From: an uncultured Gemmatimonadota bacterium
GTDB lineage: Bacteria > GCA-2686955
DNA: 38,414 nucleotides
NCBI GenBank assembly: GCA_964490075.1
Contig: CAZBBK010000060.1
Location: forward strand, 1 to 38,414
Reading direction: 5' to 3'
In this document: piece after piece, positions 3,231-38,414 of the stretch
How positions within the stretch are numbered: the first letter of the stretch is position 1
How the letters are laid out: each line of letters starts with the position of its first letter
Program-made: the position numbers and the translations under genes
Notes under the pieces: generated by a model
What the model was told of the DNA's origin: nothing
Seen by the model: only the letters and a program-made list of their open reading frames with translations
Databases searched by the model: none

Positions 3231-3282
3231 GAGACGAGAATGCGGCAGGCCCGGCACAGCGATCCTCCACGCAGGAAGCGCG

Positions 3283-3428: not shown

Positions 3429-3430
3429 CC

Positions 3431-3446: not shown

Positions 3447-3460
3447 CATCTCCCGCTCCG

Positions 3461-4216
3461 CTACTCGGCCCGCCTCTCCAGCAGCCTCCGAACGATCTCC
3501 GCCGGATCCGCCCCCTCTTCGAGCACGAAGGCGACCACGTGCCCGGAGCCGCCCGCCAGCGGCTCGATCAGCCCCTCGAAGGGCGCCTCGTCCGCCGCCC
3601 GTTTCAGGGCGTTGAAGTGGTGGCGCGCCCGCACCGCCACGGGCTGGTTCGGCTTGCGCCCGCGGCGCGAAAGCGGCCGGCCGAGCAGCTCCAGGTGCTG
3701 GTCGGCCAGCCATTGGTCGAACTGCGGCCGCGACATCTCGACGAGATCGTCGGCCTGCTCGGCCACAGCGGCGCGGGCAGCCGGTTCGCGCAGCAGCGGC
3801 GTGAGCTGGCGGGCGCGGCTCCAGGGCAGGCGCTCGATCTGGGGCAGCAGCTCCGCGTCGGGGTCGGCGCCGTGGAACTCGTGGGCCCGGTAGAGGGTGG
3901 AGGCGTCGATGCCGGTGTCCTCCGCCAGGCTCCTGAAGATCCGTCCGCCGTAGCGCCGGCGGCGATCGCCCTGCGCCAGGAAGCGGTCGATGCGCTTGCC
4001 GATCTCCCAGTAGATCTTCACCATCGCGGCAAAGCGGCTCCGGCAATGGCTCGCCAGCTCGACGTAGCCCTTTTCCGCCTGCAGCTCCGGGTCGGCGTTG
4101 CCGCGCGCCTGGTGGACGATGCTGCGATCCAACGAGCGACCGTTTCCGGCGACCTCCCTCGAGCCGGAAACGGGCTCCGCGACTGCGTCAGCGTTGCGGT
4201 CCGTGACGTCTGCCAT
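3461..4216 (-). CDS. DUF1016 (YhcG-family) N-terminal-domain protein lacking the PD-(D/E)xK nuclease half
   Basis: KIYWEIGKRIDRFL...RRRYGGRIFRSLAEDTGIDASTLYRAHEFH and LPWSRARQLTPLL match the YWxIG...RAxYG...LSxxL...NLxxMRxFY and LSWSHY..LL motifs of the DUF1016 N domain. Only 251 aa, and the C-terminal 80 aa are unrelated to PD-(D/E)xK. SD with A6 tract (CGAAAAAAGGGGCGAACAATG) at 4216. Confidence 0.6.
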   Translation of the reverse strand: MADVTDRNADAVAEPVSGSREVAGNGRSLDRSIVHQARGNADPELQAEKGYVELASHCRSRFAAMVKIYWEIGKRIDRFLAQGDRRRRYGGRIFRSLAEDTGIDASTLYRAHEFHGADPDAELLPQIERLPWSRARQLTPLLREPAARAAVAEQADDLVEMSRPQFDQWLADQHLELLGRPLSRRGRKPNQPVAVRARHHFNALKRAADEAPFEGLIEPLAGGSGHVVAFVLEEGADPAEIVRRLLERRAE

Positions 4217-16400: not shown

Positions 16401-16436
16401 CGCTCGGGGCAGGATCGCACAGGCGCCGCGGGGGTG

Positions 16437-17933
16437 CTACTCAACGTAGCCGAGGGCCTCCAGATTGGCCTGGACCTGGGTGCTCAAGGGGGCGCCGCGC
16501 AGCTCGCAGATCTCGATCTCGGGAGAGCCGATGCCGAAAGCGCCGGCGAGCATCCGATCGCTGAGCTCCTCGACCAGCGCCACGACCCGCGCGGGCTGCT
16601 CGGCCGCCAGGTTCAGGCAGTGTTCGGGGTCGATCCGCGAGTCGTAGAGCTCGATGACGTCGCCGGGATGGCCGTCGCAGCCGGGCGGCGGCAGCAACGC
16701 CAGCTCTCCGCGATGCCGATCGAAGCCCCAGGGCGCCGAGTAGCCGCCGTAGATGCTGTAGCGGCCGGCGTGGTAAGCGAAGCGCGCGCGGCCGTGCTCG
16801 GTGTGGGCCACCGGTCGCTGTCCCGGCTCGTCGTGCATCCAGGGCATCAGGTCGACCCCGTGGATCGATGCCGGCGCCGCGACGCCGGCGACCGCCAGCA
16901 GCGTGGCGAAGATGTCGACCGTGGTCGCCCGCACTCCCACTCGCCCGCCGGGCTCCAGGAGCGGCGGGTAGCGGAAGATGGCCGGCACCCGGGTCACCTC
17001 GGGGTAGAGCGAGTGGGAATGGCCGATGGCGCCGCGGTCCATCAGCTCCTCGCCGTGGTCGGCCGTCAGCACCACCACGGTCTGGTCGAAGGACCGGGAC
17101 GAGGCCCGGTAGAGGGCGAGGATCTCGCCCAGCAGCCGGTCGGCCGCCCAGATACCGGTGTCGTAGAGGCCCTCCACGTAGACCATGCTGTCGGGGGCGC
17201 TGAGCCAGGCACCGCTCGAGGGGCCGAGTCCGTTGCAGTCGCGCGCCGCGGCCGGATCCAGCGCCGGCGCCTCGCGGTTGACCCGGCGGATCGCCAGCTC
17301 GGCCCGCTCCACGCCGTCGAGCCCGCGCGGCAGGAAGGCGGCCTCGTTGGCCCGGGCGGGACCGTAGGGCGCGTGGGCGAGGTTGATGTGGACGAAGGTG
17401 AAGAGCGGACCGGAGGACTCGAGGTGGATGCGCAGCAGCATCTGGATCGGCGTGCTCAACTCCTCCCGCTGCCCAATGTGGGTCAAGCGCTCGAAGCCGA
17501 GGTCGAAGCCGAACTCCGGTCCCACGTAATCGTTCTGGTAGAGGCCAAAGGTGGAGTAGCCGTGCCGCTGCAGCAGCACCGGCAGCAGATCGAAGCTCTC
17601 GCAAAGCGCGGCGCGGTTGTCGATGATGCCGTGGGTGGTGGGGTAGAGCCCGGTGAAGAGCGAGGCGTGGGTCGGCAGGGTCCAGTCGGAGCTGGAGAAG
17701 AAGTGGTCGAAGGCCACCCCCTGGGCCGCCAGGGCGTCGATGTTGGGGCTGGTGGCGCGCGGGGCGCCGTAGCAGCCGAGGTGGTCGGCGCGCACCGTAT
17801 CGAGCGAGATCAGCAGGATGTCGGGCGGAGCGGGCGGCGCGGAGAAGCCGCAGGCCGCGAGCTGCAGGCAGCACGCGAGCAGACCGAGCGGGCGGCCCGG
17901 CCGGCGCATCCGGGGGGGGGTCGGAGTGCTCAT
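16437..17933 (-). CDS. sulfatase-domain (alkaline-phosphatase superfamily) lipoprotein with Thr at the nucleophile position
   Basis: ISLDTVRADHLGCYGAPRATSPNIDALAAQGV, DHGEEL. Lipobox LQLAAC. At the C-x-P-x-R position the sequence is T-L-P-T-H-A-S-L-F-T-G. Start is either ATG 17933 (MSTPTPPRMRRPG) or ATG 17909 (MRRPG). Confidence 0.75.
   Translation of the reverse strand: MSTPTPPRMRRPGRPLGLLACCLQLAACGFSAPPAPPDILLISLDTVRADHLGCYGAPRATSPNIDALAAQGVAFDHFFSSSDWTLPTHASLFTGLYPTTHGIIDNRAALCESFDLLPVLLQRHGYSTFGLYQNDYVGPEFGFDLGFERLTHIGQREELSTPIQMLLRIHLESSGPLFTFVHINLAHAPYGPARANEAAFLPRGLDGVERAELAIRRVNREAPALDPAAARDCNGLGPSSGAWLSAPDSMVYVEGLYDTGIWAADRLLGEILALYRASSRSFDQTVVVLTADHGEELMDRGAIGHSHSLYPEVTRVPAIFRYPPLLEPGGRVGVRATTVDIFATLLAVAGVAAPASIHGVDLMPWMHDEPGQRPVAHTEHGRARFAYHAGRYSIYGGYSAPWGFDRHRGELALLPPPGCDGHPGDVIELYDSRIDPEHCLNLAAEQPARVVALVEELSDRMLAGAFGIGSPEIEICELRGAPLSTQVQANLEALGYVE
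17912..17920. repeat. G9/C9 homopolymer between the two candidate start codons of the lipoprotein gene
   Basis: cGGGGGGGGGt read directly. On the minus strand it encodes T-P-P-R if the start is 17933, or abuts the ATG at 17909. Confidence 0.5.
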
Positions 17934-18029
17934 CGCGGGTGGGTCGAGGGCGCATCCGGGGCGCGCCCGGGGGGCGCCGACTCCGCTATGATCGCGGCGC
18001 CTGCCCGTCAGTTTAACCTTGGAGCTGTC

Positions 18030-20531
18030 ATGGCCGCGCCTCCCTCCAGCAAGACCTTCGACTTCCTGGCCTCCGCCCCCCACCAGCGGGCCAAGCTCAA
18101 CGACGAGTCGATCAAGCGCGACTTCGCCGCCCACCTGCGCTACTCGCTGGCCAAGGATCGCTTCACCGCCACCAAGCGCGACCAGTACTACGCCCTGGCG
18201 CTGGCGGTTCGCGACCGGGTGGTGGAGCGCTGGATCAAGACCCAGCAGACCCACCACGCGCGCGACGCCAAGCGCATCTACTACCTCTCGCTCGAGTACC
18301 TGATCGGCCGCGCCCTGCACAACAACGTCCTCAACCTCGGCTTCGAGGATGTGCTCCGCGACGCCCTCGACGAGCTCGGCATCGTCTTCGAGGACCTCCT
18401 CGATCACGGGGTCGACGCCGGGCTCGGCAACGGCGGTCTGGGCCGGCTGGCGGCCTGTTTCCTCGACTCGATGGCGACCATGGAGCTGCCGGCCTTCGGC
18501 TATGGGCTCTGCTACGACTACGGGATCTTCACCCAGACCATCCAGGACGGGCACCAGTTCGAGCGCCCCGACGACTGGCTCCGGCGCGGCAACCCCTGGC
18601 TGATGGCACGCCCGGAGTACATCGCCGAGGTCCATTTCGGCGGCCGGGTGGAAGCGGTCCACGACCACACCACCACCGGCTTCCGCTGGGTCGACACCGA
18701 CACCGTGATCGGCCTGCCCCACGACATGCCGATCGTCGGCTACGGCTGCAACACCGTCAACAACCTGCGCCTGTGGTCGGCGAAGGCGCGCGAGGAGTTC
18801 GATTTTCACGATTTCAACCGTGGTGACTACTTCGGAGCCGTGGAGCAGAAGAACCTGGCTGAGCGTATCACCAAGGTGCTCTACCCCAACGACAACAACT
18901 ATGAAGGCAGGGCGTTGCGCTTCCGCCAGCAGTACTTCTTCGTCTCCTGCTCACTGCAAGACATCTTGCGCCGCTACCTCTCCGAGCACCAGGGCTTCGA
19001 CTCCTTCCCCGACAAGGCCGCCATCCAGCTCAACGACACCCATCCCGCGCTCGCCGTGCCGGAGCTGATGCACCTGTTGATCGATCGCCAGGGACTCGAC
19101 TGGGACCGCGCCTGGCGCATCACCCAGGCGGCCACCGGCTACACCAACCACACCCTGATGCCAGAGGCCCTGGAACGCTGGCCGCTGGAGTTCTTCGAGA
19201 CCTTCCTACCGCGCCACCTGCAGATCATCTACGAGGTCAACCGTCGCTTCCTGCGCCGAGTGCAGACACGTTTTCCCTTCGACGAGGCGCGCTTGCGGCG
19301 CATGAGCCTGATCGACGAGACCCCGCCGCGCTCGGTGCGCATGGCCAATCTCGCCATCGTCGGTTCCAAGTCGATCAACGGCGTGGCGGCGCTCCACACC
19401 CACCTGCTCGAAACCCACCTGTTTCGCGACTTCTACCAGCTCGACCCGGAGCGCTTCAACAACAAGACCAACGGCATCACTCCGCGGCGCTGGCTGCTGC
19501 TGGCCAATCCCGGACTGTCGACCCTGATCAGTGACCTGATCGGCCCGGACTGGGTCACCGACCTGGAGCGCCTGCGCGAGCTCCAGAGCGCCGCCGACGA
19601 CGCGGAGTTCCGCCGCGCGTTCCGGCGCGTCAAGGCCGACAACAAGTCGCGCCTGGCCGAGCTGTTGCGCCAAGCGGCCGGTGTGCGGGTGCCGCCCGAC
19701 GCGATCTTCGATGCCCAGGTCAAGCGTTTTCACGAGTACAAGCGCCAGCTTTTGAACGTGCTGCACATCGTGATGCTCTACATGCGCCTGAAAGACGATC
19801 CCACGCTGGAGATGCCCCCCCGCGTCTTCATCTTCGCCGGCAAGGCGGCGCCCGGCTATGCCATGGCCAAGCTGATCATCAAGCTGATCCACTGCCTGGC
19901 CGAGGTCATCAATCGCGACGATTCGATCGACGACCGCTTGCGGGTGGTCTTCGTGCCGAACTACGGAGTCACCCTGGCGCAGCGCATCATCCCCGCGTCC
20001 GAGGTCAGCCAGCAGATCTCCACCGCCGGCATGGAGGCCTCGGGCACCGGCAACATGAAATTCGCGCTGAACGGCGCGCTGACGGTCGGCACGCTGGACG
20101 GCGCCAACATCGAGATTCGCCAGGAGGTCGGTGACGACAACATTTTCGTGTTCGGTCATACGGCCGAGCAGGTGGAAGATCTGCGCGACGATCCGGCGGC
20201 CCATCCGCGGCTCTTCTACGAGAGCGACGACGAGATCAGAAGAGTCTGCGATCTGCTCTTCGGCGACTTCTTCAACCGCGACGAGCCGGGGATCTTCCAG
20301 CCGCTTCGCACACGCATCCTGGAGAGCCCCGATCCCTATATGCACCTGGCCGATCTGCGGAGCTATGCCGACGCGATGCAGTGCTCGGCGCAGCGCTACC
20401 TGGATCCGGAGGACTGGGACCGCGCCGCGATCCTGAACGTGGCGCGGATGGGGAAGTTCAGCTCCGACCGCACCATTGGCGAGTACAACGAAGAGATCTG
20501 GCGCGTGGAGCCTATCGGCATCGAGGACTGA
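18030..20531 (+). CDS. glgP: glycogen/maltodextrin phosphorylase
   Basis: 833 aa. Phosphorylase signature region EASGTGNMKFALNGALTVGTLDGANIE (PLP lysine), LAACFLDS, NDTHPAL. SD GGAG 5 nt before the ATG. Confidence 0.9.
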   Translation: MAAPPSSKTFDFLASAPHQRAKLNDESIKRDFAAHLRYSLAKDRFTATKRDQYYALALAVRDRVVERWIKTQQTHHARDAKRIYYLSLEYLIGRALHNNVLNLGFEDVLRDALDELGIVFEDLLDHGVDAGLGNGGLGRLAACFLDSMATMELPAFGYGLCYDYGIFTQTIQDGHQFERPDDWLRRGNPWLMARPEYIAEVHFGGRVEAVHDHTTTGFRWVDTDTVIGLPHDMPIVGYGCNTVNNLRLWSAKAREEFDFHDFNRGDYFGAVEQKNLAERITKVLYPNDNNYEGRALRFRQQYFFVSCSLQDILRRYLSEHQGFDSFPDKAAIQLNDTHPALAVPELMHLLIDRQGLDWDRAWRITQAATGYTNHTLMPEALERWPLEFFETFLPRHLQIIYEVNRRFLRRVQTRFPFDEARLRRMSLIDETPPRSVRMANLAIVGSKSINGVAALHTHLLETHLFRDFYQLDPERFNNKTNGITPRRWLLLANPGLSTLISDLIGPDWVTDLERLRELQSAADDAEFRRAFRRVKADNKSRLAELLRQAAGVRVPPDAIFDAQVKRFHEYKRQLLNVLHIVMLYMRLKDDPTLEMPPRVFIFAGKAAPGYAMAKLIIKLIHCLAEVINRDDSIDDRLRVVFVPNYGVTLAQRIIPASEVSQQISTAGMEASGTGNMKFALNGALTVGTLDGANIEIRQEVGDDNIFVFGHTAEQVEDLRDDPAAHPRLFYESDDEIRRVCDLLFGDFFNRDEPGIFQPLRTRILESPDPYMHLADLRSYADAMQCSAQRYLDPEDWDRAAILNVARMGKFSSDRTIGEYNEEIWRVEPIGIED

Positions 20532-24897: not shown

Positions 24898-25783
24898 GAT
24901 GCGCGCAAGTCTACCGAGAGCGGTCTTTTCGTCCAACGTCGCGGTGGCGGTGGGGGCACTGGGGGCGGCGGCGCTGCTGCCGGCCGGCTGCGAGGTGGCG
25001 ACCGAGCTCGGCGCTGAGCCGATCCCGCTGCCGGAGATGGTGGCGATCGCGGCGGGCGCCTTCGACGCCGGAAGCCCGCTCGGCGCATCGATCCGCGACG
25101 CCGACGAGACTCCGCACCGGGTCACCCTGACCCGTCCCTTCCTGATCGCCACCACCGAGGTCAGCCAGGCGCTCTGGGAGCGGGTGATGGGCGCCAATCC
25201 CAGCCTGCGGTGGAGCTGCGGCGAGACCTGCCCGGTCGACGACCTGAGCTGGTTCCAGGCGGTGGATTTCTGCAACGAGCTTTCGCGGCTGACCGGCCTC
25301 GAGCCGGCCTACCAGGTCGAGGGCGACCAGGTCTCGTGGGACGAAACCAGCCCCGGCTACCGGCTGCCGACCGAGGCCGAGTGGGAGTACGCCTGCCGGG
25401 GAGGCAGCGGCGACGACTTCTTCAACGGCGCGATCACCGAGCCCCACGGCTGCACCACCCTCGACCCCCTGCTCGACCAGATCGCCTGGTACTGCCCCAA
25501 CGGCGGCTCCACCACCCACCCCGCGGCGCGCAAGGCGCCCAACGCCTGGGGACTCTACGACACCGCCGGCAACGTCTCGGAATGGTGCTGGGACCGCTAC
25601 GGCGACTACCCCGCCGGCCCCGTGATCGATCCCACCGGCCCCCCGACCGGCGCCCAGCGGGTGCGCCGCGGCGGCTCCTGGTCGGAGGCGGCGCGCGACT
25701 GCCGCAGCGCCGACCGCGCCATGGTCGACCCGACGACCCGCAGCTACAACCTGGGGCTACGGCTGGCTCGATTCGGCTCCTGA
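24896..25783 (+). CDS. formylglycine-generating-enzyme (SUMF1/FGE-sulfatase) family lipoprotein
   Basis: RLPTEAEWEYACRGG, NAWGLYDTAGNVSEWCWD, RVRRGGSW. Signal/lipobox MMRASLP...AALLPAGC. In-frame ATGs at 24887, 24896 and 24899. Confidence 0.75.
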   Translation: MMRASLPRAVFSSNVAVAVGALGAAALLPAGCEVATELGAEPIPLPEMVAIAAGAFDAGSPLGASIRDADETPHRVTLTRPFLIATTEVSQALWERVMGANPSLRWSCGETCPVDDLSWFQAVDFCNELSRLTGLEPAYQVEGDQVSWDETSPGYRLPTEAEWEYACRGGSGDDFFNGAITEPHGCTTLDPLLDQIAWYCPNGGSTTHPAARKAPNAWGLYDTAGNVSEWCWDRYGDYPAGPVIDPTGPPTGAQRVRRGGSWSEAARDCRSADRAMVDPTTRSYNLGLRLARFGS

Positions 25784-26913
25784 TCGGTCGCCGTCCCCCC
25801 CTCCCCCTCCTCACCGGCCGCACCGGCCGCACCGGCCGAGGCCGCCTGCCCGAAGGCGGTGAGCCCACCCAGCGCCCCCAGTCCCATGGTCTCCACCGCC
25901 GACGAAGGAACGATGATCATCGACCCCTTCTGGCGCAGCCCCTCGTAGACCATGTTCATGGCGCGCAGGTGCAGCGCCACCGGATTGTCGCGGTACTGCT
26001 CCGACGCGGCGGCGAACTTCTCGGCGATCTCGGTCTCGGCGGTGCCGAGGATGATCCGGCTCTGGCGCTCGCGCTCCGCCTGGGCCTGGCGCGACATCGC
26101 GTCCTCGAGTCCCTTGGGGATGATGATGTCGCGGATCTCGACCGCCTGGGTGGTGATGCCCCAGGCCGCGGTCTTCTCGTCGAGCAGGCGCTGGATCTCC
26201 TCGCCCAGCCGGTCGCGCTCCGAGAGCAGCACCGCCAGGTCGTTCTTGCCGATGGCGTTGCGCAGCGCGGTCTGGGCCGAGAGGATCACCGCGTTGGCGA
26301 AACGTTCCACCTCCAGCACCGCCTTCTCGGCGTCCCAGACCATCCAGAAGGCGATCGCGTCGACGTTGACCGGCACGGTGTCGGCGGTCAGCGTGGTCTC
26401 GGCGCTGAAGTCGCTGACCCGGATCCGCTGGTCGACGAACTGCGCCACCTTGTCGACCACCGGCAGCAGCAGAAAGAGCCCCGGCTTGCGCAGCCCGCGG
26501 AAGGTGCCGAAGCGCAGCACCACGGCGCGCTCCCACTGGTAGGCGATCTGGATCGCGGGGGCGACCAGCATTGCGAGGGCGATGGTCACCAGCAGGATCT
26601 CACTGTCGGGACGCAGCTCGAGATAGGTGACCAGCCCGTCGGCGGCGCCCAGAATCACCACCGACTCCCAGACCTGGGAGAGGCGCAGCAGCAGCGCCAG
26701 ACAGACCGCCGACCCGAGGGCCAGCGTCACCGCCTCGACCGTGAAGGGGTGCACCGCCAGGTGCACCATCAACCCGATCACGAAGATCGCCACCATCAGG
26801 AGGGCGTTGAGCGGCGCGAAGCGGAAGTCGGCGCGCAGACTGGTGGCGAACTTCTCGAGGGAGAGCGCGGCGAGCGCCTTGCCGAACGAAGTTGACTTCT
26901 CCGAGGAGCTCAT
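25744..26913 (-). CDS. SPFH/band-7 (stomatin-prohibitin-like) protein with an extra N-terminal multi-TM region
   Basis: Band-7 core (AVVLRFGTF...LLLPVVDKV...IAFWMVWDAEKAVLEVERF...), Gly/Ala-rich tail. SD AAGGAGGA. ATGA overlap with the GntR stop. Confidence 0.8.
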   Translation of the reverse strand: MSSSEKSTSFGKALAALSLEKFATSLRADFRFAPLNALLMVAIFVIGLMVHLAVHPFTVEAVTLALGSAVCLALLLRLSQVWESVVILGAADGLVTYLELRPDSEILLVTIALAMLVAPAIQIAYQWERAVVLRFGTFRGLRKPGLFLLLPVVDKVAQFVDQRIRVSDFSAETTLTADTVPVNVDAIAFWMVWDAEKAVLEVERFANAVILSAQTALRNAIGKNDLAVLLSERDRLGEEIQRLLDEKTAAWGITTQAVEIRDIIIPKGLEDAMSRQAQAERERQSRIILGTAETEIAEKFAAASEQYRDNPVALHLRAMNMVYEGLRQKGSMIIVPSSAVETMGLGALGGLTAFGQAASAGAAGAAGEEGEGGTATDQEPNRASRSPRL

Positions 26914-27287
26914 CGGGAATCCTCCTTGCGATCCTCGAGCCCTTGCAGCACATCGTCGAGCGAAAACCCGTACGAGGCCGCGCGGGCCAGGAGATCGGTG
27001 GTGATCTGGTCGAGCATGCGGGCCCTCTCTAGCTGGTCGACGGCGGGGCGCTGCCGCCCCACGAAAGTGCCCGAGCCCTGCTGGGTCTCGAGCACGCCGC
27101 CGATCTCGAGCTCCCGGTAGGCCCGCACCACGGTGTTCGGGTTGATCGAGAGATCGACCGCCAGCCGGCGCACGGTCGGAAGCTGCCGCCCCGGCTCCAG
27201 ATCACCGCGAGCGATGGCGAACTTCACCTGCTCGATGATCTGGCGGTAGAGCGGCACACCGCTCTTGGAGTCGATGTGGAAGGTCAT
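26910..27287 (-). CDS. short GntR-family (YtrA-like) transcriptional regulator
   Basis: 125 aa. PLYRQIIEQVKFAIARGDLEPGRQLPTVRRLAVDLSINPNTVVRAYRELE is a GntR winged-HTH. Palindromic operator immediately upstream. Confidence 0.8.
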   Translation of the reverse strand: MTFHIDSKSGVPLYRQIIEQVKFAIARGDLEPGRQLPTVRRLAVDLSINPNTVVRAYRELEIGGVLETQQGSGTFVGRQRPAVDQLERARMLDQITTDLLARAASYGFSLDDVLQGLEDRKEDSR

Positions 27288-27313
27288 CGGTGGGGGCCGG
27301 GGATGGGTTGTTG

Positions 27314-27329
27314 AGTGTTATATAACACT
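27314..27329. promoter_or_regulatory. perfect 16-bp palindrome AGTGTTATATAACACT; candidate GntR operator
   Basis: Self-complementary as read. AT-rich island in GC-rich DNA. Followed by two more ACACT half-sites (27334, 27342). Lies 27-42 bp upstream of the GntR ATG. Confidence 0.5.
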
Positions 27330-27356
27330 AGTACACTCGAACACTGGAAAGGTCAA
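27328..27356 (-). promoter_or_regulatory. sigma70-like promoter for GntR-SPFH: -35 TTGACC, 17-bp spacer, -10 TACTAG
   Basis: Minus-strand reading ...TTGACCtttccagtgttcgagtgTACTAG.... The operator palindrome overlaps the -10 and the predicted transcription start. Confidence 0.35.
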
Positions 27357-27610
27357 TAGGGAAAACAGACCTTGGCCGGTTCCCGTTGAAAAGCGCGGCA
27401 TCGCCCCCGGCCTCGGGGAAGATCGCGCGGCAGGGCGCTCGGGCCGCCGCCGGTCCCTCCGCCTCTTGGATGCGCGCCCGGTGCCGGTCACCGGCCGCGA
27501 CCGGATCACCAGGCCCGGGCGTCCGTCGATCTCGCCGGCGCGCGGCGTTGCGGCGCTTGCGCGGTCAGCACCGGAAGAGCCTCGCGCGAGGGAGCCACGA
27601 CCGCGCAAGT

Positions 27611-27830
27611 GTCACAACTCGGCACTCTCGGGGAAGAACGCCGAGCTACGACCGTATTTCCGTCATGACTCGCCACTCTCGATCGAGAATCGCTGGTTAC
27701 GACGCGAATACGGTCGTGGCTCCGGTTTCATCGCGATGAGTAGCGAGTTGTGACGGATATACGGTCGTAGATCCGCACTCTCGATCGAGAGTGGCGAGTT
27801 GTGTCGCGAAAAGGCGTCATGACTCGCGGT
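27611..27830. repeat. mosaic of nested inverted and direct repeats: a ~145-bp imperfect palindrome centred on TCGATCGA at 27680-27687, plus a second partial unit centred on CACTCTCGATCGAGAGTG (27776-27793)
   Basis: GTCACAACTCG (27611) pairs with CGAGTTGTGAC (27745), with a third copy CGAGTTGTGtC (27795). TACGACCGTAT (27648) pairs with ATACGGTCGTg (27708) and ATACGGTCGTA (27759). GTCATGACTCGC occurs at 27662 and 27817. Central 18-bp palindromes lie at 27674-27691 (16/18) and 27776-27793 (perfect). Confidence 0.55.
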
Positions 27831-27999
27831 TCCGGGCGCGGAGCTGGGCTTTGTGTCGGGGCAGCGCGCGGGGATCGTGGAGCCTCGCGTGGGCTGGGCA
27901 GAGGGCCGCGAGCAATGCGGGCGGTCGATGCATGGTCATCGTGGTCTCCCGGTCTTTCGGTCCCGAGTCGATGGGCGCGAGATCCGGCGCGAGCAAACC

Positions 28000-28776
28000 T
28001 CAGCGCCGCCGCATGCAGGTCAACTGGCCGTCGCAGTAGAAGGTCTCGAAGCGCTCGGAGAGAAAGGGGCGCAGGCAGTCGGCGATGCTGAACACCACCG
28101 GCGCGCGCGCGCGCTGCTCCAGGTGGCGGGCCAGGCGCCGGTAGAAGGGGCGGCCGGGCCCGGCGGGGCGGACCGGGCGGTAGAGGTAGACCAAGTCGGC
28201 CACGGCGGGCAGCTCGGCGTCGAGCAGATCGGCGTGCACCCAGTCGACCCGCTCGGAGGCGATGCCGAGCCAGCGCTGCAGGGCGCGGCCCGACTCGATC
28301 ATGCGGGCCGAGATCTCGATCTGGATGGTCTTGGCATGGGGGCGAAGGTGCTGCATCAACAGCCCCTGCAGACCGTTGCCGGCGCCGAGATCGACCACGA
28401 TCGAGTCGGGTCCGAGATGGGCGGGCGCTTTGAGAATCGGCGACAGGCCGCCGGCGTGGCACCAGTAGCCGCCGCTCTCGTCGACGCGCGCGCGCTCGGC
28501 GCCGGTGTAGGGAGCTTCATGGCCGTGCAGGTGCGCGTAGAAGAAGAGAAAGGCCTCTTCGAGCGCCTCGCCGTCGGTGCCGGAAAGGGTGTCTCGAAGG
28601 GCGTCGCGCAGACGCGCGATCTCGGGGTAGAGGCCGATCGGATCGGGGGGGAGGGGAAGCGCCAGGAAGAGCTCGATCAAGCGCACCAGGCGCGCGGTCT
28701 CGGCACGATCACGCTCCGGATCGGCCAGCAGCTCTTCGAACCTGGCGCGCTCGCTGGCGTCGAAATATGTCAGCAT
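28000..28776 (-). CDS. putative class I SAM-dependent methyltransferase
   Basis: Gly-rich motif I IVVDLGAGNGLQG preceded by an ~110-aa helical N-terminal region. Lies 17 bp downstream of the topoisomerase B-subunit stop. Function unknown. Confidence 0.6.
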   Translation of the reverse strand: MLTYFDASERARFEELLADPERDRAETARLVRLIELFLALPLPPDPIGLYPEIARLRDALRDTLSGTDGEALEEAFLFFYAHLHGHEAPYTGAERARVDESGGYWCHAGGLSPILKAPAHLGPDSIVVDLGAGNGLQGLLMQHLRPHAKTIQIEISARMIESGRALQRWLGIASERVDWVHADLLDAELPAVADLVYLYRPVRPAGPGRPFYRRLARHLEQRARAPVVFSIADCLRPFLSERFETFYCDGQLTCMRRR

Positions 28777-28793: not shown

Positions 28794-30719
28794 CTAGAGA
28801 TCGAGCTCGCCGGCGGCAGCGGCGTTGGCCATGATCAGATCGAAGCGGATCCGCGCGTCGCGCCCCATCAGCCCCGACATGGTCGACTCGGTGACCAGGC
28901 GATCGTCGCCGTCGATGCCGACCCGTAGCAAGCGCCGCCGCTCGGGATCGAGCGTGGTCTGGAAGAGAACGTCCGGATCCATCTCACCCAGGCCCTTGAA
29001 GCGGCTGATCTGCGGCTTCACGTTGGCCGGGGCGGCCTCCAGGACGGCGTCGAGCTCGGCGTCGGTGAGCGCCCACTCGGTCTCCTTGGCGAGCTTGACA
29101 CGATAGAGCGGCGGCTGGGCCAGACACACATGACCGCGGTCGATCAAGGGCCGCAGGTAACGATAGAAGAATACCAGCAGCAAGGTCGAGATGTGGTGGC
29201 CGTCGGAATCGGCGTCCATCAAGAGGATGATGCGATGATAACGCAGCCGCGAAACGTCGCAGTGCTCGCCCAGACCGCAGCCCAGAGCCAGCAACACATC
29301 ACCCAGCTCCTTGTTGGCCATCACCTTGGCGCGGGTGGCTTGCTCGGTGTTGAGGACTTTGCCGCGCAGCGGCAGGATCGCCTGGGTGCGGCGGTCTCGG
29401 CCCTGCTTGGCGCTGCCGCCGGCCGAGTCGCCCTCGACGATGAAGAGCTCGCATTCGGTGGGATCGGTGGAGGAGCAGTCGGCCAGCTTGCCGGGCAGGT
29501 TGAGGCGGTGGCTGACGGTCGGCTTTTTGCGCGCGCTCTGCGCCGCGGCACGGCTGGCGACCCGCGCCCGGGCGGCATAGATGGCGCGTGTGGCCAACGC
29601 CTCGCCCATCGAGGGGTGATGGTGCAAGTGCTGCTCGAGCTGGCGCGCCAGGGCGCCGGAGAGCAGCCCGCGCAGCTCGGGGTTGTTCAGCTTCTCCTTG
29701 GTCTGGCCCTGGAACTGCGGCTCCAGGAGGAACACACTCACCACGCCGACCAGCCCCTCGCGGAAATCGTCGGCCACCAGGCTCAGGCCGCGCGGAATCA
29801 GCTCGTGGGTCTCCATGTAGGTGCGCGAGGCGCGCGCCACCCCCTCCAACAGACCGCGCTCGTGGGTACCGCCGTCGACCGTCGGGATGCCGTTGACATA
29901 GCTGCGCACGTCGGGGCGCACCTCCTCGGTCCAGGAGAGCGCGACCTCGATCCGGCTGACGCCCTGGTCACCGTTGCCGAGGCCCGCGCTTTCCCAGACG
30001 AAGGGCTCGGGATGAACCGGCCGGGCGCCGCCGTTGCCCACCAGGGTGCCGACCAGCTCGGCGACGCCCTCGTCGTGGCGGTACTCGTGGGTGAGGCCAC
30101 TGCAACAGTCCTTGAAGACGATTCTGAGTCCCTTGTTGAGGTAGGTCTTGATCTCCAGGTGGTCGGCGATCAGCTCGGCGTCGAAGGCGCAGCTCGGAAA
30201 GATCTCGGAGTCGGGACGGAAAAAGAAAAGGGTGCCGCTGCCGCGCACCGCACCGGCCGGTTTGACCGGTCCGCGCGGTTCGCCGCGACGATATTCCTGG
30301 CGGAAGCGCCGCCCCTCGCGCCGCACCTCGACCCGGAGCTCGACGCTGAGCGCGTTCACCACCGACGCACCGACGCCGTGCAGGCCGCCCGATGTGAGGT
30401 AGTTGCTGCGATCGAACTTGCCGCCCGCGTGCAGAGTGGTGAGGATCACTTCGAGCGCGCTCTTGCCCTCCTTCTTGTGGCGGTCGACCGGGATGCCGCG
30501 GCCGTTGTCCTCGACAGAGCAACTCTGACCGTCCTCGTGCAGGGTGACGACGATCGACGACGCGAAACCGTTCATCGCCTCGTCGACGGCGTTGTCGACC
30601 ACTTCCCAGAGCAGGTGGTGCAGACCGCCCGCGCCGGTGCCTCCGATGTACATGCCGGGCCGGCGGCGCACCGGATCGAGGCCTTCGAGAACGGTGATGT
30701 CCTTGGCGCTGTAGGCCAT
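28794..30719 (-). CDS. type IIA topoisomerase ATPase subunit (GyrB/ParE family, 641 aa, no GyrB insertion; ParE-like)
   Basis: GHKL ATPase motifs (LHHLLWEVVDNAVDEAMNG, DNGRGIP, GLHGVGASVVNALS), Toprim EGDSAGGSAK, LMDADSDGHHI, PLYR. SD AGGAG. Follows the A subunit after a 22-bp gap. Confidence 0.85.
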   Translation of the reverse strand: MAYSAKDITVLEGLDPVRRRPGMYIGGTGAGGLHHLLWEVVDNAVDEAMNGFASSIVVTLHEDGQSCSVEDNGRGIPVDRHKKEGKSALEVILTTLHAGGKFDRSNYLTSGGLHGVGASVVNALSVELRVEVRREGRRFRQEYRRGEPRGPVKPAGAVRGSGTLFFFRPDSEIFPSCAFDAELIADHLEIKTYLNKGLRIVFKDCCSGLTHEYRHDEGVAELVGTLVGNGGARPVHPEPFVWESAGLGNGDQGVSRIEVALSWTEEVRPDVRSYVNGIPTVDGGTHERGLLEGVARASRTYMETHELIPRGLSLVADDFREGLVGVVSVFLLEPQFQGQTKEKLNNPELRGLLSGALARQLEQHLHHHPSMGEALATRAIYAARARVASRAAAQSARKKPTVSHRLNLPGKLADCSSTDPTECELFIVEGDSAGGSAKQGRDRRTQAILPLRGKVLNTEQATRAKVMANKELGDVLLALGCGLGEHCDVSRLRYHRIILLMDADSDGHHISTLLLVFFYRYLRPLIDRGHVCLAQPPLYRVKLAKETEWALTDAELDAVLEAAPANVKPQISRFKGLGEMDPDVLFQTTLDPERRRLLRVGIDGDDRLVTESTMSGLMGRDARIRFDLIMANAAAAGELDL

Positions 30720-30741: not shown

Positions 30742-33168
30742 TCAGAATTCGAGCCTGGTCTGCTCCGCGTCGTCGAGCGGATCCGGCGGGGCCGGCGGCT
30801 CGGGCTCCGGCCGCGGCTCGTCCTCCGGCTCGGCGGCCGCCGGGTCGAGACGGATCTCCACGGCATCGAAGCGACACGATACCAGCTTGCCGCGTTTGAG
30901 GATCTCCCGCCCTTTGCCGCCGCGGCGGGTGGGACGGTACTTGGTGGTGCGTACGATCTCGGTGCGGCCGCGCGAGGTCTGCACCTCCAGTCCGTCGCGC
31001 GCCCGGGTCGAGAGGCTGAAGCCCAGCACCCGGTCGTAGTCGTCGAGCTTGACTGCACGCACGCCGCGCCCGGGCCCCTTCAGCACGTTGATCTCGTCGA
31101 CGTAGAACACCAGAGCGCGCCCCCAGACCGTCGCCAGCGAGATCGTCTCGTCGTCGCTCTCCTCGGAGACCATTGCTCGCACCACGCCGTCGTCCGGCAC
31201 CGCCGGATCGAGGCGCACGAAGACCCGCCCCTTGCGGGTCGAGGGCTCGACGAAAGCTCTCGGAGAGAAGCGCAGGCAGGAGCCGCCGCGGGTCACCGCC
31301 ACCAGGTAGGGCGGCGGCGGCAGCTCGGCCTCGCGCGCCTTGTCGATCTCCTCGGGAGTGATCTCCGGCCAGGCCCGCGCATCGCTCACCGCCACGCCGA
31401 CCACCCGCTCGCGATCGGCCAGATCGAATCGGCGATGCACCGGTTCGCCGTGTCCGGAGGTCTGCGACAGATCGGAGACTCGCGCGCTGTAGGCCTTGCC
31501 GCGATCGGTGAAGAGCACCACCGACTCCTTGGTGCGCGCCGGCAGCACCCACATCACCTCGTCGCCCTCGCGGACGCGGATCGCGCTCAGCTCGGTGTAG
31601 CTCTTCTGACGCTTGATCCAGCCGTCGCGGGTGACGATCACGCGAGCGTCCTCGTCGACCAGGTAGTCTTGCTCGGAGTAGCTGTCTTCAGGGGCTCCGG
31701 CGTCGGTGATCAGGCTGCGACGCTCATCGCGGTAAAGGCGATCGAGCTCGGCCAGCTCCATGCGGATCAGCTCCCAGCGCGGGCGTTTTCCCGTCAGCCG
31801 GCGGCGAATCCGCTCGGCACGGCGACGCTTGTCGTCGAGCTCTTCGCGGATCGCCTCGATCTCCAGCTTCGACAGTCGGTAGAGACGGATCTCCAGCACC
31901 GCCTCGGCCTGCGGGTCGGAGATGCCGAAGCGCTCCCGCAGCTTGGCGTGGGCGTCGCGACGGTCTTCAGCGGCGCGGATCAGCCGCACCGCCTCGTCGA
32001 GCGCATCGAAAACTGTCGCGAAGCCCTCCAGGATGTGGATCCGCTCCTCGAGCTTGCGCAGGTCGAACTCCAGGCGCCGGGTCACGACCTGGAAGCGGAA
32101 ATCCAGAAAGGCCCTGAGCGCCCCCTTCAGATCGACCTTGCGCGGCACCGGCTGGCCGCCCTCGCCTTCCGGCACCAGGCAGGTGAGGTTGACGTGGAAA
32201 CGCGAACGGAGCTGGGTGTGCTTGAAGAGATAGGCGGCCCCGGCCGCGGAATCGGTACCCCTCTTCAGCTCGCAGATGATGCGCACCTGGTCGGTCGACT
32301 CGTCGCGCACGTCGACCAGCTGCGGGACCTTCTCGTCGATGATGTGCTGGGCGATCCCCTCGACCAGCGACGATTTGTTGACGTTGTAGGGGATCGAGGT
32401 GATCACCAGGGCGCGCTTGCCTTCCACTCTCTCGACTTCGACGTGGCCGCGCATCTCGATCGTGCCCTCACCCTTCCGGTAGATCTCCGCCAGCTCGTCG
32501 GGGGAGGTGGTGATGCGTCCTCCGGTGGGGAAGTCGGGCCCGGGCACGTGCTGCATCAGCTCGGCGTTGCCGAGCTCGCCGTCCTCGATCAGTGCCACCA
32601 GCGCGTCGATCAGCTCGCCGAGGTTGTGCGGGGGGATGCTGGTCGCCATGCCGACCGCGATCCCCTGGGCGCCGTTGACCAGCAGGTGTGGGATCTGCGC
32701 CGGCAGCACCTCCGGCTCCCGGTAGGTCCCCTCGAAATTGTCGCGGTAGTCGACCGTCTCCTTCTTGAGCTCGTCGAGCAGCTCGGCCGAGAGCCGCTGG
32801 AGGCGCGCTTCGGTGTAACGCATGGCGGCGGCGTTGTCGCCGTCCAGGCTGCCGAAGTTGCCCTGGCCGGCCACCAGCGGGTAGCGCATCGCCCAGGGCT
32901 GCGCCAGGCGCACCATGGCGTCGTAGATCGCCTGATCGCCGTGCGGGTGGTACTTGCCCATCACCTCGCCGACCACCGCCGCGCATTTGCGAAAACGCGA
33001 CTCGGCCGACAGCTTCAGGTCGTTGAACATCGCGTAGAGGATGCGCCGCTGGACCGGCTTCAGGCCGTCGCGCACGTCGGGCAGAGCGCGGCTGGTGATG
33101 ACGCTCAGGGCGTAGTTGAGGTAGCGCTCGCGGGTGGTTTCGTGCAGCGCCACGGTCTGGATCGCCAT
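30742..33168 (-). CDS. type IIA topoisomerase subunit A (GyrA/ParC family; CTD looks ParC-like)
   Basis: [21 protein letters not shown], catalytic-Tyr region [11 protein letters not shown]. The first CTD blade lacks a GyrA box. RRGGKG appears only near the C-terminus. Acidic tail. A-then-B gene order. Confidence 0.85.
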
Positions 33169-33203
33169 GGGGTCTCCGTCAGTGCAAGAAGGTCGCCGGC
33201 AGT

Positions 33204-33998
33204 CTAGCGCGGATCGCCCAGCTCCCGTACCAGCTCCTCGGCGATCTGCTCGGGGTCGCGCGCCGCGGTCTCGACCACCCGGCTGGCCTGGCGGTAGAGC
33301 GGCTCGCGCTCGGCCAGGAGCATCCGCAGGCGGGCCATGGCGTCGGGGTGGTCGGCCATCGGCCGGGTGTCGCCCTGGGCCAGGACGCGGCTCCAGAGCT
33401 CGGCCGCCGCGGCCCGCAGCCACAGGGTATGGGTGCGGGCGCGCAGCAGGTCGAAGGTGGTGGGATCGGTGACGATCGAGCCGCCGGTGGCGAGCACCAG
33501 GCGGCCCGGGCGCTCCAGAACCGCCTCCAGGCAGCGGCGCTCCAGAACCCGGTACTGGGCGCCCTCGGTCAGCTCGAAGAGCGCGCCGAGCGACATGCCG
33601 GCGGCCGCCTCGATCTCGCGATCCAGCTCGACCAGGGGTACGCCGAGGAGCTCCGCCAGACGGCCTCCGACCGCACTCTTGCCGGCGCCGCGCATGCCGA
33701 GCAAGGCGATCTTGCGCTCGGCCGGCACCGCAGGCGGCAGCGCGGCGGCGAATAGACGCGGCGGGGAAAGCTCCAGGGCCTGGCAGAGCTTGAGCAGCCG
33801 GGCCACCGAGATGTTGGCGCCGCCGCTCTCGACCTGCGCCAGGAAACGCACGCTGATCTCGGCGCGCTCCGCCAGCATCTTCTGGGTCAGGCCGCCCGCG
33901 CGGCGCGCCTTGCGCAGCTCGCGGCCGAGGCCGGCGAGGGCGTCGGCGAGCGGATCGGGGGGCGGGTCGGCGCCGCGCTGCTGGTTGCCGGGGGTCAA
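33204..33998 (-). CDS. aroK: XRE-family HTH domain fused to shikimate kinase
   Basis: N-terminal [39 protein letters not shown] (HTH_XRE), then [30 protein letters not shown] (shikimate kinase P-loop) and the LID region. TTG start with SD GGAGGA. First gene of the topoisomerase operon. Confidence 0.75.
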
Positions 33999-37834: not shown

Positions 37835-37957
37835 GGTGTACTCCTCGGTGGTTCGATTCGGCGGCTCGAGAGCCTGGGACGTCGCGTTCCGAGGTGGGTG
37901 GCGAGTCGCGCTTGCTGGGAGCGAGCCATCCTACAACACCGGGGAAGCCGCTAGTTC

Positions 37958-38088
37958 GGGCGTTTCGATATGGCGCTTCTCGGGCGACGCACTCCGCGAG
38001 GAACCGCGGGCCCAGCGGGAGTCCGCGGGCCTTCGGGGCTCCATGCGCGGTTGGGGGGATGTTCTCGACAGCGCTTCTTCGCGTGCCG
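37958..38088. repeat. copy 2 (inverted) of the ~130-bp repeated element seen at 3283..3428
   Basis: About 85% identity to the reverse complement of copy 1. Flanking 17-bp direct repeats TCGATATGGCGCTTCTCG and TCGACAGCGCTTCTTCG. A short direct-orientation fragment (CCCCTGATC...CCAATC) recurs at 38127-38166. Confidence 0.55.
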
Positions 38089-38296
38089 CTGCCTCTGCCC
38101 TGTAGCGTTTCTCCCAGCCTGGCTGGAGCCCCTGATCAGGGATGATCCAGTCAGGCCAGGCCAATCCGCCGGGAGCCACCTTTCATGCTCAGCGCTTCGA
38201 GCGCCGGTACAGGGGTGACCCGACCATCGCGGCGGCCTTGTCTGTGCGTTGCAGCAAGGAGTTGGGTATGGAAGAGACGAATGTGTCGCGGAGCCG

Positions 38297-38414
38297 ATGG
38301 TGGTCGAGCTTCGGGAGTGGTCGCGGATGACCGAGCAGCTGCGGCGCTACTACCCGCAGACCCTGCGCTTCGATCCCGATCTCGGGACGGACTGGTTCCC
38401 ACGCCGGAGCGCGT
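38297..38414 (+). CDS. 5' end of an unidentified gene running off the window (MVVELREWSRMTEQLRRYYPQTLRFDPDLGTDWF...)
   Basis: Strong G/C third-position bias. Preceded by a 20-codon mini-ORF that has its own AAGGAG SD. Confidence 0.35.
   Translation, partial: MVVELREWSRMTEQLRRYYPQTLRFDPDLGTDWFPRRSA

What the first reader, a model, noticed from the sequence alone, without database searches (positions are those of the whole stretch)
27611..27830. 220-bp mosaic of nested palindromes between the methyltransferase gene and the GntR promoter region
A ~145-bp imperfect palindrome is centred exactly on TCGATCGA at 27680-27687. Its outer arms are GTCACAACTCG (27611) and CGAGTTGTGAC (27745). Its inner arms are TACGACCGTAT and ATACGGTCGTg. 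Immediately after it comes a second, rearranged unit: ATACGGTCGTA, the perfect 18-bp palindrome CACTCTCGATCGAGAGTG at 27776-27793, CGAGTTGTGtC and GTCATGACTCGC. No protein-coding potential is apparent, and the motifs are not seen elsewhere in the window. Candidates: a MITE or REP/BIME-like element, a long-hairpin structured RNA, a multi-site protein-binding array, or a recombination or replication-termination-type site.
Basis: seen in the sequence. Interest (0 to 1): 0.6.

Follow-up and report, generated by a model that had tools for sequence, protein, structure and literature searches.

The report
Dispersed palindromic intergenic repeat array
The "mosaic of palindromes" is real and is one copy of a non-coding, hairpin-forming repeat array that recurs at two or more other places in what appears to be the same uncultured bacterium's genome, so it is a new family of a familiar kind of repetitive intergenic DNA, not a locus-specific regulatory site.

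Summary
The anatomy is simpler than described. It is an array of 47-nt quasi-palindromic units at a strict 51-bp period. Each unit has a 5' box ACGGTCGTRG, a variable central palindrome and a 3' box GCGAGTYRTGAC. There are four good units (27611-27805) and two degenerate ones (27560-27606, 27816-27862). Two units on the - strand are followed by two on the + strand, giving a ~196-nt hairpin centred at 27708; further dyads recur every 25.5 nt.

The region is non-coding and matches no Rfam family. It lies ~260 bp upstream of the conserved GntR promoter/operator, which relatives have without any such array.

The decisive result came from searching the six-frame translation as protein. This found spurious ORFs on two other contigs of the same metagenome. 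Those contigs carry the same array (95% and 86% identity, same unit order) next to unrelated genes, among other shuffled repeat modules.

So this is a dispersed, apparently lineage-restricted repeat, closest to REP/BIME clusters or a MITE. Copy number, boundaries and the mobilising enzyme could not be determined. Unit pairing showed no covariation above shuffled controls. It is a new member of a known kind and of modest interest.

The parts
27560..27866 (-). Whole copy of the repeat array ('family A'), written in the orientation of the flanking genes. The left boundary (~27862-27866) is defined by where L035 diverges. The right boundary is uncertain.
   Evidence: blastn: window 27668-27897 matches L034 at 95.2% over 230 nt, and window 27662-27872 matches L035 at 85.8% over 211 nt. 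Three-way alignment A1.
27611..27657 (-). Unit R3: ATACGGTCGTAG-CTCGGCGTTCTTCCCCGAGAGTGCCGAG-TTGTGAC. The whole 42 nt can form one hairpin (13 Watson-Crick pairs plus 6 G:T of 21 positions).
27662..27708 (-). Unit R4 (head GTAA, central TCTCGATCGAGA).
27708..27754 (+). Unit R1 (head GTGG, central TCATCGCGATGA). It abuts R4 head to head and shares position 27708 with it, which is the centre of the long hairpin.
27759..27805 (+). Unit R2 (head GTAG). It contains the perfect 18-bp palindrome at 27776-27793.
27560..27606 (-). Degenerate unit R0. It keeps the 5' box CGGTCGTGGCTCC and a central palindrome CTCGCGCGAG.
   Evidence: (D5)
27816..27862 (-). Degenerate unit R5. It keeps the 3' box GCGAGTCATGAC and is nearly invariant in all three genomic copies.
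27613..27803 (.). Long imperfect palindrome. R3 plus the outer part of R4 pairs with the outer part of R1 plus R2: arms 27613-27678 and 27738-27803, 80% complementary. This is the minimum-free-energy hairpin on both strands.
   Evidence: (I2)
27862..27897 (-). Module m0 (CCAGCCCACGCGAGGCTCCACGATCCCCGCGCGCTG), a separate short repeat that abuts the array here and in L034. In L035 and L039 it is joined to a different module instead.

Best explanation
The region is one copy of a multi-copy, non-coding, dispersed repeat family.

Shown:
- It is an array of five to six 47-nt quasi-palindromic units at a 51-bp period. Each unit has a 5' box ACGGTCGTRG, a variable central palindrome and a 3' box GCGAGTYRTGAC.
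- The same array, with the same unit order, occurs at two or more other loci with unrelated neighbouring genes.

Inferred from composition and sample co-occurrence: those loci belong to the same uncultured high-GC bacterium.

Inferred mechanism:
- It behaves like a REP/BIME cluster, that is, selfish or structural intergenic DNA. Each unit can extrude a ~20-bp hairpin in single-stranded DNA or RNA.
- Inverted neighbouring units let the whole array form a cruciform or long hairpin.
- Copies would be spread or homogenised in trans by an enzyme that recognises the conserved boxes flanking the hairpins (a RAYT-like HUH transposase or another transposase), and by recombination or gene conversion between copies.
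- At this locus the array lies 135-440 nt downstream of the parC-parE-methyltransferase genes on their strand. Its likely local effect is a hairpin barrier that insulates that transcript from the GntR-SPFH promoter or stabilises its 3' end. It is not a dedicated regulatory site.
For: - Dispersal. The six-frame translation of 27596-27832, searched as protein, hit only three spurious ORFs. They lie on contigs Ga0118727_1002339 (L034) and Ga0118727_1010991 (L035, with L036 and L038 as the same locus), from the window's own sample. At DNA level the array is 95.2% (230 nt) and 85.8% (211 nt) identical, with the unit order R5-R2-R1-R4-R3-like kept. The neighbouring genes are unrelated: a penicillin amidase and a beta-helix protein.
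- Same organism. Tetranucleotide correlation with the window is 0.984 and 0.985, against 0.87-0.94 for other high-GC contigs. The loci co-occur in three samples.
- Non-coding. GC3 of the overlapping ORFs is 0.62-0.71 against 0.86-0.89 for real genes, and there is no Pfam hit.
- Unit anatomy. Four core units are 53-79% identical to each other. 79% of unit positions pair in register, against 33-48% when the register is slid. The 51-bp period is found independently by TRF.
- Repeat-rich, modular context, as in BIMEs. Modules B, m0, 'ins' and C are shuffled between loci, one MITE-like insertion has flanking duplications, and L035, the window's contig and especially L034 end in or within a few hundred bases of repeats.
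- Not tied to the GntR gene. Relatives keep the GntR-SPFH pair and its promoter/operator, with 255-621-bp upstream regions and no units.
- Definitions of REP and BIME (GT(A/G)G head plus palindrome, regular spacing, clusters) come from PMC2817692. REP325, a six-repeat BIME between co-directional genes, comes from PMC4550694.
Against: - Only three loci were found. Genome-wide copy number is unknown, because the DNA collections that could be scanned did not return even the source contig.
- No RAYT or other transposase is in the 38-kb window or the fetched flanks.
- No solitary units or doublets occur in ~62 kb of this organism's DNA. The whole array, not the unit, seems to be what is copied, which is unlike classic REPs.
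- The GT(A/G)G head is present in only 6 of 11 units.
- Orientation is > < < > > >, not strictly alternating.
- Covariation in the unit hairpin is not above shuffled controls.
- The right-hand part of the array (R3, R0) differs strongly between the window and L034/L035, so the boundaries are undefined.
- That L034 and L035 come from the same genome is inferred, not proven.
Confidence: 0.55

Rival explanations
1. It is a MITE: a non-autonomous deletion derivative of a transposon whose ends each carry two phased transposase-binding units. The 2+2 inverted arrangement (R3, R4 | R1, R2) would be the two ends joined together.
For: - A ~196-nt imperfect palindrome with 66-nt arms at 80%.
- Several copies at unrelated loci.
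- Non-coding and under 600 bp.
- The same genome holds another small element with 26-nt terminal inverted repeats and TGGAA flanks, absent from a homologous site. This suggests active MITE-type insertion there.
Against: - Homology between copies does not end at the palindrome's outer ends. It runs on through R5 to ~27862 on one side and decays inside R4/R3 on the other.
- No direct duplication flanks 27611/27805.
- No related autonomous element or transposase was found.
- In L034 and L035 the best hairpin is formed by different units (R4 with the R3-like unit), not the same 2+2 arms.
Confidence: 0.18
2. It is a fragment of the non-coding end of a larger mobile element (transposon, integrative element or prophage) with multiple phased recombinase-binding sites. 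The copies would be remnants left in repeat islands.
For: - In L034 and L035 the array sits in 1-1.7-kb non-coding islands with other shared modules (B, a middle segment, m0), and the contigs end there.
- Ten to eleven half-sites GTCRYRRCTC lie in divergent pairs with 9-nt spacers every 51 bp.
Against: - No recombinase or transposase is adjacent to any copy.
- The window copy is flanked on both sides by ordinary chromosomal genes.
- My recalled resemblance of the neighbouring 'ins' and C modules to IS110 transposase gave no Pfam hit even at E<=10.
Confidence: 0.1
3. It is a phased array of binding sites for a chromosomal architectural or segregation protein, or a cruciform/RNA-based nucleoid organiser like E. 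coli REP325/naRNA4. It would be dispersed because the protein acts at several loci.
For: - A strict 51-bp period, about five helical turns.
- Conserved asymmetric boxes around variable palindromes.
- The REP325 precedent (PMC4550694).
Against: - No candidate binding protein and no experimental data.
- The boxes are not better conserved than the rest between genomic copies.
- The same features are expected of selfish repeats.
Confidence: 0.08
4. It is a structured non-coding RNA (a multi-copy sRNA or 3'-UTR element) whose long hairpin is the functional product.
For: - Fold z-scores of about -9.
- It lies between co-directional genes, so it is probably transcribed by read-through.
Against: - Both strands fold equally well, and the + strand, antisense to the flanking genes, is the more stable.
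- No Rfam hit.
- No promoter-like site, and no intrinsic terminator on the strand of the flanking genes.
- Units occur in both orientations, so the G:T positions cannot all be wobble pairs in one transcript.
- No covariation above controls.
- The minimum-free-energy architecture differs between copies.
Confidence: 0.06
5. It is a locus-specific regulatory or terminator region of the methyltransferase or GntR operons, generated by local duplication only.
For: Its position between the two transcription units.
Against: - The same array is found at unrelated loci.
- The GntR promoter/operator is ~260 bp away and is conserved in relatives without the array.
- No U-tract terminator on the strand of the flanking genes.
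Confidence: 0.03

Closest known systems
E. coli BIME-2 clusters such as REP325 (Y-l-Z2 repeats); REP/BIME in general (PMC2817692, PMC3333891, PMC4550694)
   Same: - Extragenic, here between co-directional genes.
- An array of regularly spaced imperfect palindromic units in both orientations, with short constant-length linkers.
- A GT(A/G)G-type head before the palindrome in about half of the units.
- Potential to form cruciforms or hairpins.
- Embedded in a mosaic of other short repeat motifs.
   Different: - Units are longer (47 nt, against ~20-40).
- The period is 51 bp, against 77-bp double units.
- Orientation is not strictly alternating.
- No solitary units were seen; the whole array is what recurs.
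- Copy number and a cognate RAYT are unknown.
- No sequence similarity to any known REP.
REPINs (REP doublets forming hairpins; PMC3116915, PMC3337134)
   Same: Inverted palindromic units form a long hairpin. They are non-coding, multi-copy and thought to be mobilised in trans.
   Different: A REPIN is a doublet of ~25-nt REPs present in hundreds of copies with a single-copy RAYT. Here there are four to six 47-nt units, only three loci are known, and no RAYT was found.
Bacterial MITEs (Correia, ERIC-like elements) - from general knowledge
   Same: A 100-400-bp, non-coding, highly palindromic element found at several intergenic sites.
   Different: No defined terminal inverted repeats at the limits of inter-copy homology, no target-site duplication, and an internal 51-bp periodicity.
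Neisserial intergenic mosaic elements (RS units flanked by dRS3 inverted repeats) - from general knowledge, not checked in a paper here
   Same: Arrays in which short inverted-repeat sites (here GAGYYRYGAC-N9-GTCRYRRCTC) alternate with variable segments, combined as mosaics with other modules.
   Different: Much smaller unit size, no sequence relation, and no known link to an integrating phage or recombinase.

Membership tests
REP / BIME | The unit is a short imperfect palindrome able to form a stem-loop. | tested here: met
   17-20 of 21 positions pair (including G:T) in units R1-R4. 79% of cells pair in register, against 33-48% slid. The unit is longer (42-47 nt) than typical REPs.
REP / BIME | A GT(A/G)G head immediately 5' of the palindrome (PMC2817692). 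| tested here: inconclusive
   GTAG or GTGG in 6 of 11 aligned units. The others have GTAA, GTAC or GCAA.
REP / BIME | Extragenic location. | tested here: met
   All three loci are non-coding by GC3 and Pfam. The ORFs called over them are spurious.
REP / BIME | High copy number (usually more than 100 per genome). | not testable with these tools
   Only three loci were recovered. The scannable DNA collections did not return even the source contig. The protein-based detour sees only copies overlapped by a called ORF.
REP / BIME | In BIMEs, regularly spaced units in alternating orientation. | tested here: inconclusive
   Spacing is strictly regular at 51 bp, but the orientation is > < < > > >.
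REP / BIME | Units also occur as singlets or doublets dispersed on their own. | tested here: not met
   An nhmmer unit profile found no unit outside the arrays in the 38-kb window or in the L034, L035 and L039 flanks, ~62 kb in all. The sample is small.
REP / BIME | A cognate RAYT gene flanked by inverted units. | not testable with these tools
   None in the window or the fetched flanks.
MITE | Small, non-coding and multi-copy at unrelated sites. | tested here: met
   About 300 bp, at three or more loci.
MITE | Terminal inverted repeats at the limits of the element. | tested here: inconclusive
   66-nt inverted arms exist, but inter-copy homology extends beyond one arm and decays inside the other. 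The right boundary is undefined.
MITE | Target-site duplication. | tested here: not met
   No direct duplication at 27610/27806 or at ~27862. No empty site is available for comparison.
Any Rfam RNA family | A covariance-model match. | tested here: not met
   Nothing at gathering score in the window. Only noise (E 0.13-0.78, eukaryotic miRNA models) with permissive settings.
Integron attC site | R'' RYYYAAC and R' GTTRRRY core sites at the two ends of an imperfect palindrome. | tested here: not met
   By inspection of the boxes, TCACAAC and GTTGTGA do not fit the RYYYAAC and GTTRRRY consensus. No integrase is adjacent.

The most novel reading that the evidence does not exclude
The array is not merely selfish DNA. 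It would be a dispersed, phased (51 bp, about five helical turns) set of inverted-repeat sites. These would nucleate cruciforms or bind an architectural protein or RNA at several chromosomal loci, as an analogue of REP325/naRNA4-type nucleoid organisation in an uncultured lineage. Alternatively, it is the multi-site end of a still unknown type of transposon. The evidence excludes neither, because copy number, binding partners and transcripts are all unknown.
Probability: 0.12. Interest if true: 0.6.

Novelty: new member of a known kind. Interest (0 to 1): 0.3.

Why it matters
- It shows that a striking local palindrome mosaic is a genome-wide repeat and not a regulatory device of the neighbouring genes. 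This prevents over-interpretation of the GntR and topoisomerase IV context.
- It adds a new, apparently lineage-restricted family of palindromic intergenic repeats from an uncultured high-GC bacterium. REP/BIME/REPIN biology is known almost only from Proteobacteria.
- The repeat-rich mosaic (families A, B, m0 and C, a MITE, and a second 51-bp tandem array) explains why contigs of this organism break. It could serve as a strain marker.
- The method is also useful. Translating a non-coding repeat in six frames and searching protein collections recovered genomic copies that exact-pattern DNA scans missed.

Tried and rejected
- **Exact 20-mer scans.** The degenerate pattern GWCAYRACTCGSCACTCTCG returned only single matches of 18-24 nt, with no extension, in 185,579 reference genomes and in the JGI metagenome collection. 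They fell in unrelated taxa. The source contig itself was not returned, so these scans say nothing about copy number in the source genome.
- **Viral contigs.** Five patterns taken from families A, B and m0 gave nothing.
- **Plasmid and phage records.** blastn of 27560-27900 found no match.
- **Rfam.** Nothing at the gathering or permissive thresholds.
- **Synteny through methyltransferase homologues.** They are at most 64% identical and not syntenic.
- **Synteny through GntR homologues.** The GntR-SPFH pair is conserved but the upstream neighbour differs each time, so no 'empty site' exists.
- **Strain polymorphism.** All five assemblies that cover the array are identical there. L037 differs from the window by one SNP in 12.8 kb.
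- **IS110 idea.** I recalled a resemblance of the peptides in the 'ins' and C modules to IS110 transposase motifs. Pfam gives nothing at E<=10, so the idea is dropped.
- **Covariation.** The test on 11 units is not above shuffled controls.
- **Other rejected readings.** attC, dif/Xer, parS, CRISPR and retron were rejected on anatomy and on the absence of the partner genes.
- **Small protein.** The 30-codon ORF starting in GTCATGAC changes only non-synonymously between copies and is frameshifted in L035.

Full report
**Context**

The window is almost the whole of a 38.7-kb contig from JGI metagenome 3300009128. It is 68% G+C and carries ordinary chromosomal genes.

Around the finding every gene is on the - strand:
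- a parC-like gene (within ORF 30742-33423)
- a parE-like gene (28794-30719)
- a class I SAM methyltransferase (28000-28776)
- a 712-bp intergenic region (27288-27999)
- a 125-aa YtrA-type GntR regulator (26910-27287)
- an SPFH/Band-7 protein (25744-26913)

The GntR promoter and operator sit at 27314-27356: TTGACC, 17 nt, TACTAG, overlapping the perfect palindrome AGTGTTATATAACACT. They are recognisably conserved in relatives, for example TAGTGTTCTAGAACACTA in L031. The mosaic lies ~260-550 bp upstream of that promoter and 135-440 bp downstream of the methyltransferase stop.

**Observation**

The symmetry is far beyond chance.
- Ungapped dyad complementarity over +/-75 nt peaks at 27682.5 (71%), 27708 (63%), 27733.5 (61%) and 27657 (55%). 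The window background is 28 +/- 6%.
- The repeat finder reports arms of 92 nt at 71% and 66 nt at 80%.
- Single-strand folds give z = -9.2 (- strand RNA), -8.9 (+ strand RNA) and -8.6 (DNA).
- The motifs are enriched over shuffles and occur nowhere else in the window. All seven exact GTCRYRRCTC half-sites in the window lie in 27592-27825.

**Anatomy**

The dyad centres are 25.5 nt apart because the sequence has a 51-bp period and each unit is itself quasi-palindromic. TRF finds the period at 27674-27810, and identity at lag 51 is 48% against ~23% at neighbouring lags.

The unit R is 47 nt: ATACGGTCGTRG, a variable central palindrome, then GCGAGTYRTGAC. Positions i and 53-i pair. Reading along the - strand, the array is:

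| Unit | Coordinates | Orientation | Followed by |
|---|---|---|---|
| R5 (degenerate) | 27862-27816 | > | 10 nt |
| R2 | 27805-27759 | < | 4 nt |
| R1 | 27754-27708 | < | shares nt 27708 with R4 |
| R4 | 27708-27662 | > | 4 nt |
| R3 | 27657-27611 | > | 4 nt |
| R0 (degenerate) | 27606-27560 | > | - |

The four good units are 53-79% identical to one another. R3 plus the outer part of R4 pairs with the outer part of R1 plus R2, giving the ~196-nt hairpin centred at 27708 that is the minimum-free-energy fold on both strands.

A phase-shifted description is equivalent: five sites GAGYYRYGAC-N9/10-GTCRYRRCTC every 51 bp, separated by ~22-nt palindromes.

The region is non-coding. GC3 of the overlapping ORFs is ~0.70 against 0.86-0.94 for genes, there are no Pfam hits, and no gene is called in the JGI or ENA annotations. 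It matches no Rfam family.

**Is it unique?**

Exact-pattern scans were uninformative. A 20-nt degenerate pattern that hits three units here gave 4 single hits in reference genomes and 15 in metagenome contigs. All were 18-24-nt matches in unrelated taxa. The source contig itself was not returned, so the source sample is evidently not in that collection.

I therefore translated 27596-27832 in six frames and searched the concatenation as a protein against 5.8 billion predicted proteins. Only three proteins matched (E ~1e-6). All are Arg/Pro-rich ORFs without domains. They lie on two other contigs of the same sample, plus copies in other samples of the same series:
- L034: Ga0118727_1002339, 49 kb.
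- L035: Ga0118727_1010991, 16.6 kb, with L036 and L038 as the same locus.

At DNA level:
- Window 27668-27897 matches L034 at 95.2% over 230 nt.
- Window 27662-27872 matches L035 at 85.8% over 211 nt.
- The three-way alignment shows the same order of units, each keeping its own central palindrome.
- L035 has a 10-nt deletion in R1.
- The R3/R0 side is only weakly similar between the window and L034/L035.

The neighbouring genes are unrelated (penicillin amidase; a 1228-aa beta-helix protein). The ORFs over the arrays have GC3 of 0.62-0.64. Tetranucleotide correlation with the window is 0.984-0.985, against 0.87-0.94 for other high-GC contigs. The loci co-occur in three samples. So these are most likely other loci of the same genome, but that is an inference.

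An exhaustive HMMER search of 1.84 billion cluster representatives with one of these ORFs found only four proteins, all from this set of samples. The family therefore looks lineage-restricted. Nothing similar is in plasmid, phage or viral collections.

**Mosaic context**

The organism is rich in other short repeats, and they are combined differently at each locus.
- **Family B:** a ~135-nt structured element. It occurs at window 3285-3415 and 37956-38100, at L034 10164-10304 and at L035 10052-10188, at 81-85% identity.
- **Module m0:** a 36-nt module that abuts the array here and in L034. In L035 and L039 it is joined to a different ~170-270-nt module instead.
- **Module C:** window 38170-38315 matches L039 at 91%.
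- **A MITE-like insertion in L039:** 178 bp, with 26-nt terminal inverted repeats and TGGAA flanks. It is absent from the homologous site in L035.
- **A tandem array in L035:** 4.9 copies of a 51-nt unit whose consensus starts with the same CGCGGTCGT box.

L035 and the window's own contig end within a few hundred bases of such repeats, and L034 ends about 60 nt past its array.

**What it is not**

It is not part of the GntR regulatory region. Three sets of relatives, with GntR about 80% identical, keep the GntR-SPFH pair and the promoter/operator. They have 255-, 392- and 621-bp upstream regions, different upstream neighbours and no R units.

Methyltransferase homologues are at most 64% identical and not syntenic. 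All five assemblies that cover the array, from five samples, are identical there. So neither an empty site nor a polymorphism is available.

No RAYT, transposase or recombinase lies next to any copy. I recalled a resemblance of neighbouring modules to IS110 transposase, but Pfam did not support it, so I dropped it.

**Structure versus selection**

The unit hairpin is real: 79% of cells pair, against 33-48% in slid registers. Covariation is no higher than in column shuffles. The best global fold also differs between copies. In L034 and L035 the main hairpin is R4 with the R3-like unit. Both strands fold about equally well, and units occur in both orientations. Nothing therefore singles out one RNA strand. 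DNA-level palindromy, or simple descent from a palindromic consensus, explains the data.

**Interpretation**

The best-supported reading (confidence ~0.55) is a new family of dispersed palindromic intergenic repeats that works like a REP/BIME cluster. In that kind of element, regularly spaced palindromic units with a partly conserved GT(A/G)G head sit in mosaics with other motifs (definitions: PMC2817692; the REP325 example: PMC4550694).

Membership in REP/BIME proper is not established:
- The head motif holds in 6 of 11 units.
- Orientation is not strictly alternating.
- No solitary units were seen in ~62 kb.
- Copy number and a RAYT could not be tested.

The rivals are:
- a MITE (0.18). The homology limits do not coincide with the inverted arms and there is no target-site duplication.
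- a remnant end of a larger mobile element (0.10)
- an architectural protein or cruciform array (0.08)
- an RNA gene family (0.06)
- a purely local regulatory or terminator region (0.03), which the dispersal contradicts

Locally, the most plausible effect is that of a hairpin barrier in the read-through transcript from the parC-parE-methyltransferase genes. This is inferred and not tested.

**Verdict**

This is a real feature and a new member of a known kind. Interest is modest (0.3). A complete genome of this organism would settle copy number, boundaries and the mobilising enzyme.

Noticed in passing
window 3285-3415 (-) and 37956-38100 (+); L034 10164-10304; L035 10052-10188: A second dispersed repeat ('family B'): ~135 nt, 81-85% identical between four copies, and intergenic. 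It has a conserved nested-hairpin fold (36 predicted pairs, only one with a compensatory change). No Rfam match. In L034 and L035 it lies ~350-650 bp from the palindromic array; in the window it occurs alone, twice.
   Followed up: partly
window 27862-27897; L034 ~10650-10686; L035 10512-10547; L039 1110-1141: A 36-nt module, 'm0' (CCAGCCCACGCGAGGCTCCACGATCCCCGCGCGCTG), is 97-100% conserved. It is joined either directly to the array (window, L034) or to a different ~170-270-nt module (L035, L039). This shows modular shuffling of repeats.
   Followed up: partly
window 38170-38315; L039 1335-1480: Another repeated segment ('C', 91% identical, opposite orientation), just after family B near the window's end. 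An open frame continues from it to the end of the window (…MVVELREWSRMTEQLRRYYPQTLRF…) with no Pfam hit.
   Followed up: partly
L039 913-1090: A 178-bp insertion with 26-nt terminal inverted repeats (92% complementary) and TGGAA on both flanks. It is absent from the homologous position in L035 (TGGAC), which is the signature of a MITE insertion in the same organism.
   Followed up: partly
L035 11253-11502: A head-to-tail tandem array: 4.9 copies of a 51-nt unit at 82% matches. The consensus is CGCGGTCGTCCGCGGCGGCTGAGCCGGGTCAGCGGGCGGTTTTGGTCACTC. It has the same 51-nt period and the same CGGTCGT box as the palindromic units, but is otherwise dissimilar. It is bracketed by 59-nt direct repeats (11166-11224 and 11511-11569).
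   Followed up: partly
window 27314-27356 (- strand): The likely GntR-SPFH promoter, TTGACC-17 nt-TACTAG, overlaps a perfect 16-bp palindrome, AGTGTTATATAACACT. Extra ACACT half-sites lie upstream. A matching palindrome sits at the same place in relatives (L031, L040), so this is probably the autoregulatory operator of the YtrA-type regulator.
   Followed up: partly
window 397-4216 (- strand): A tyrosine integrase (397-2109), a Gp49/HigB-like plus HTH_3 ORF (2691-3425) and a DUF1016-like gene (3461-4216) lie at the start of the window, next to a family B copy. This may be the edge of an integrated element.
   Followed up: no
L035 10545-10812: A 268-nt segment is inserted between m0 and the array in L035 only, and is partly shared with L039. 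On its reverse strand is a 57-codon ORF (…AVVELLVERLREVNRQLR) with no Pfam hit. My recalled resemblance to IS110 transposases was not supported.
   Followed up: yes
window 33204-33998 (-) and 16386-20531 (+): Two ORFs look odd. One is an HTH_3 domain fused to shikimate kinase, just upstream of parC. The other is a 1381-aa ORF in which the glycogen phosphorylase domain fills only residues 661-1374. Its N-terminal 660 aa may be a mis-started ORF or an unknown domain.
   Followed up: no
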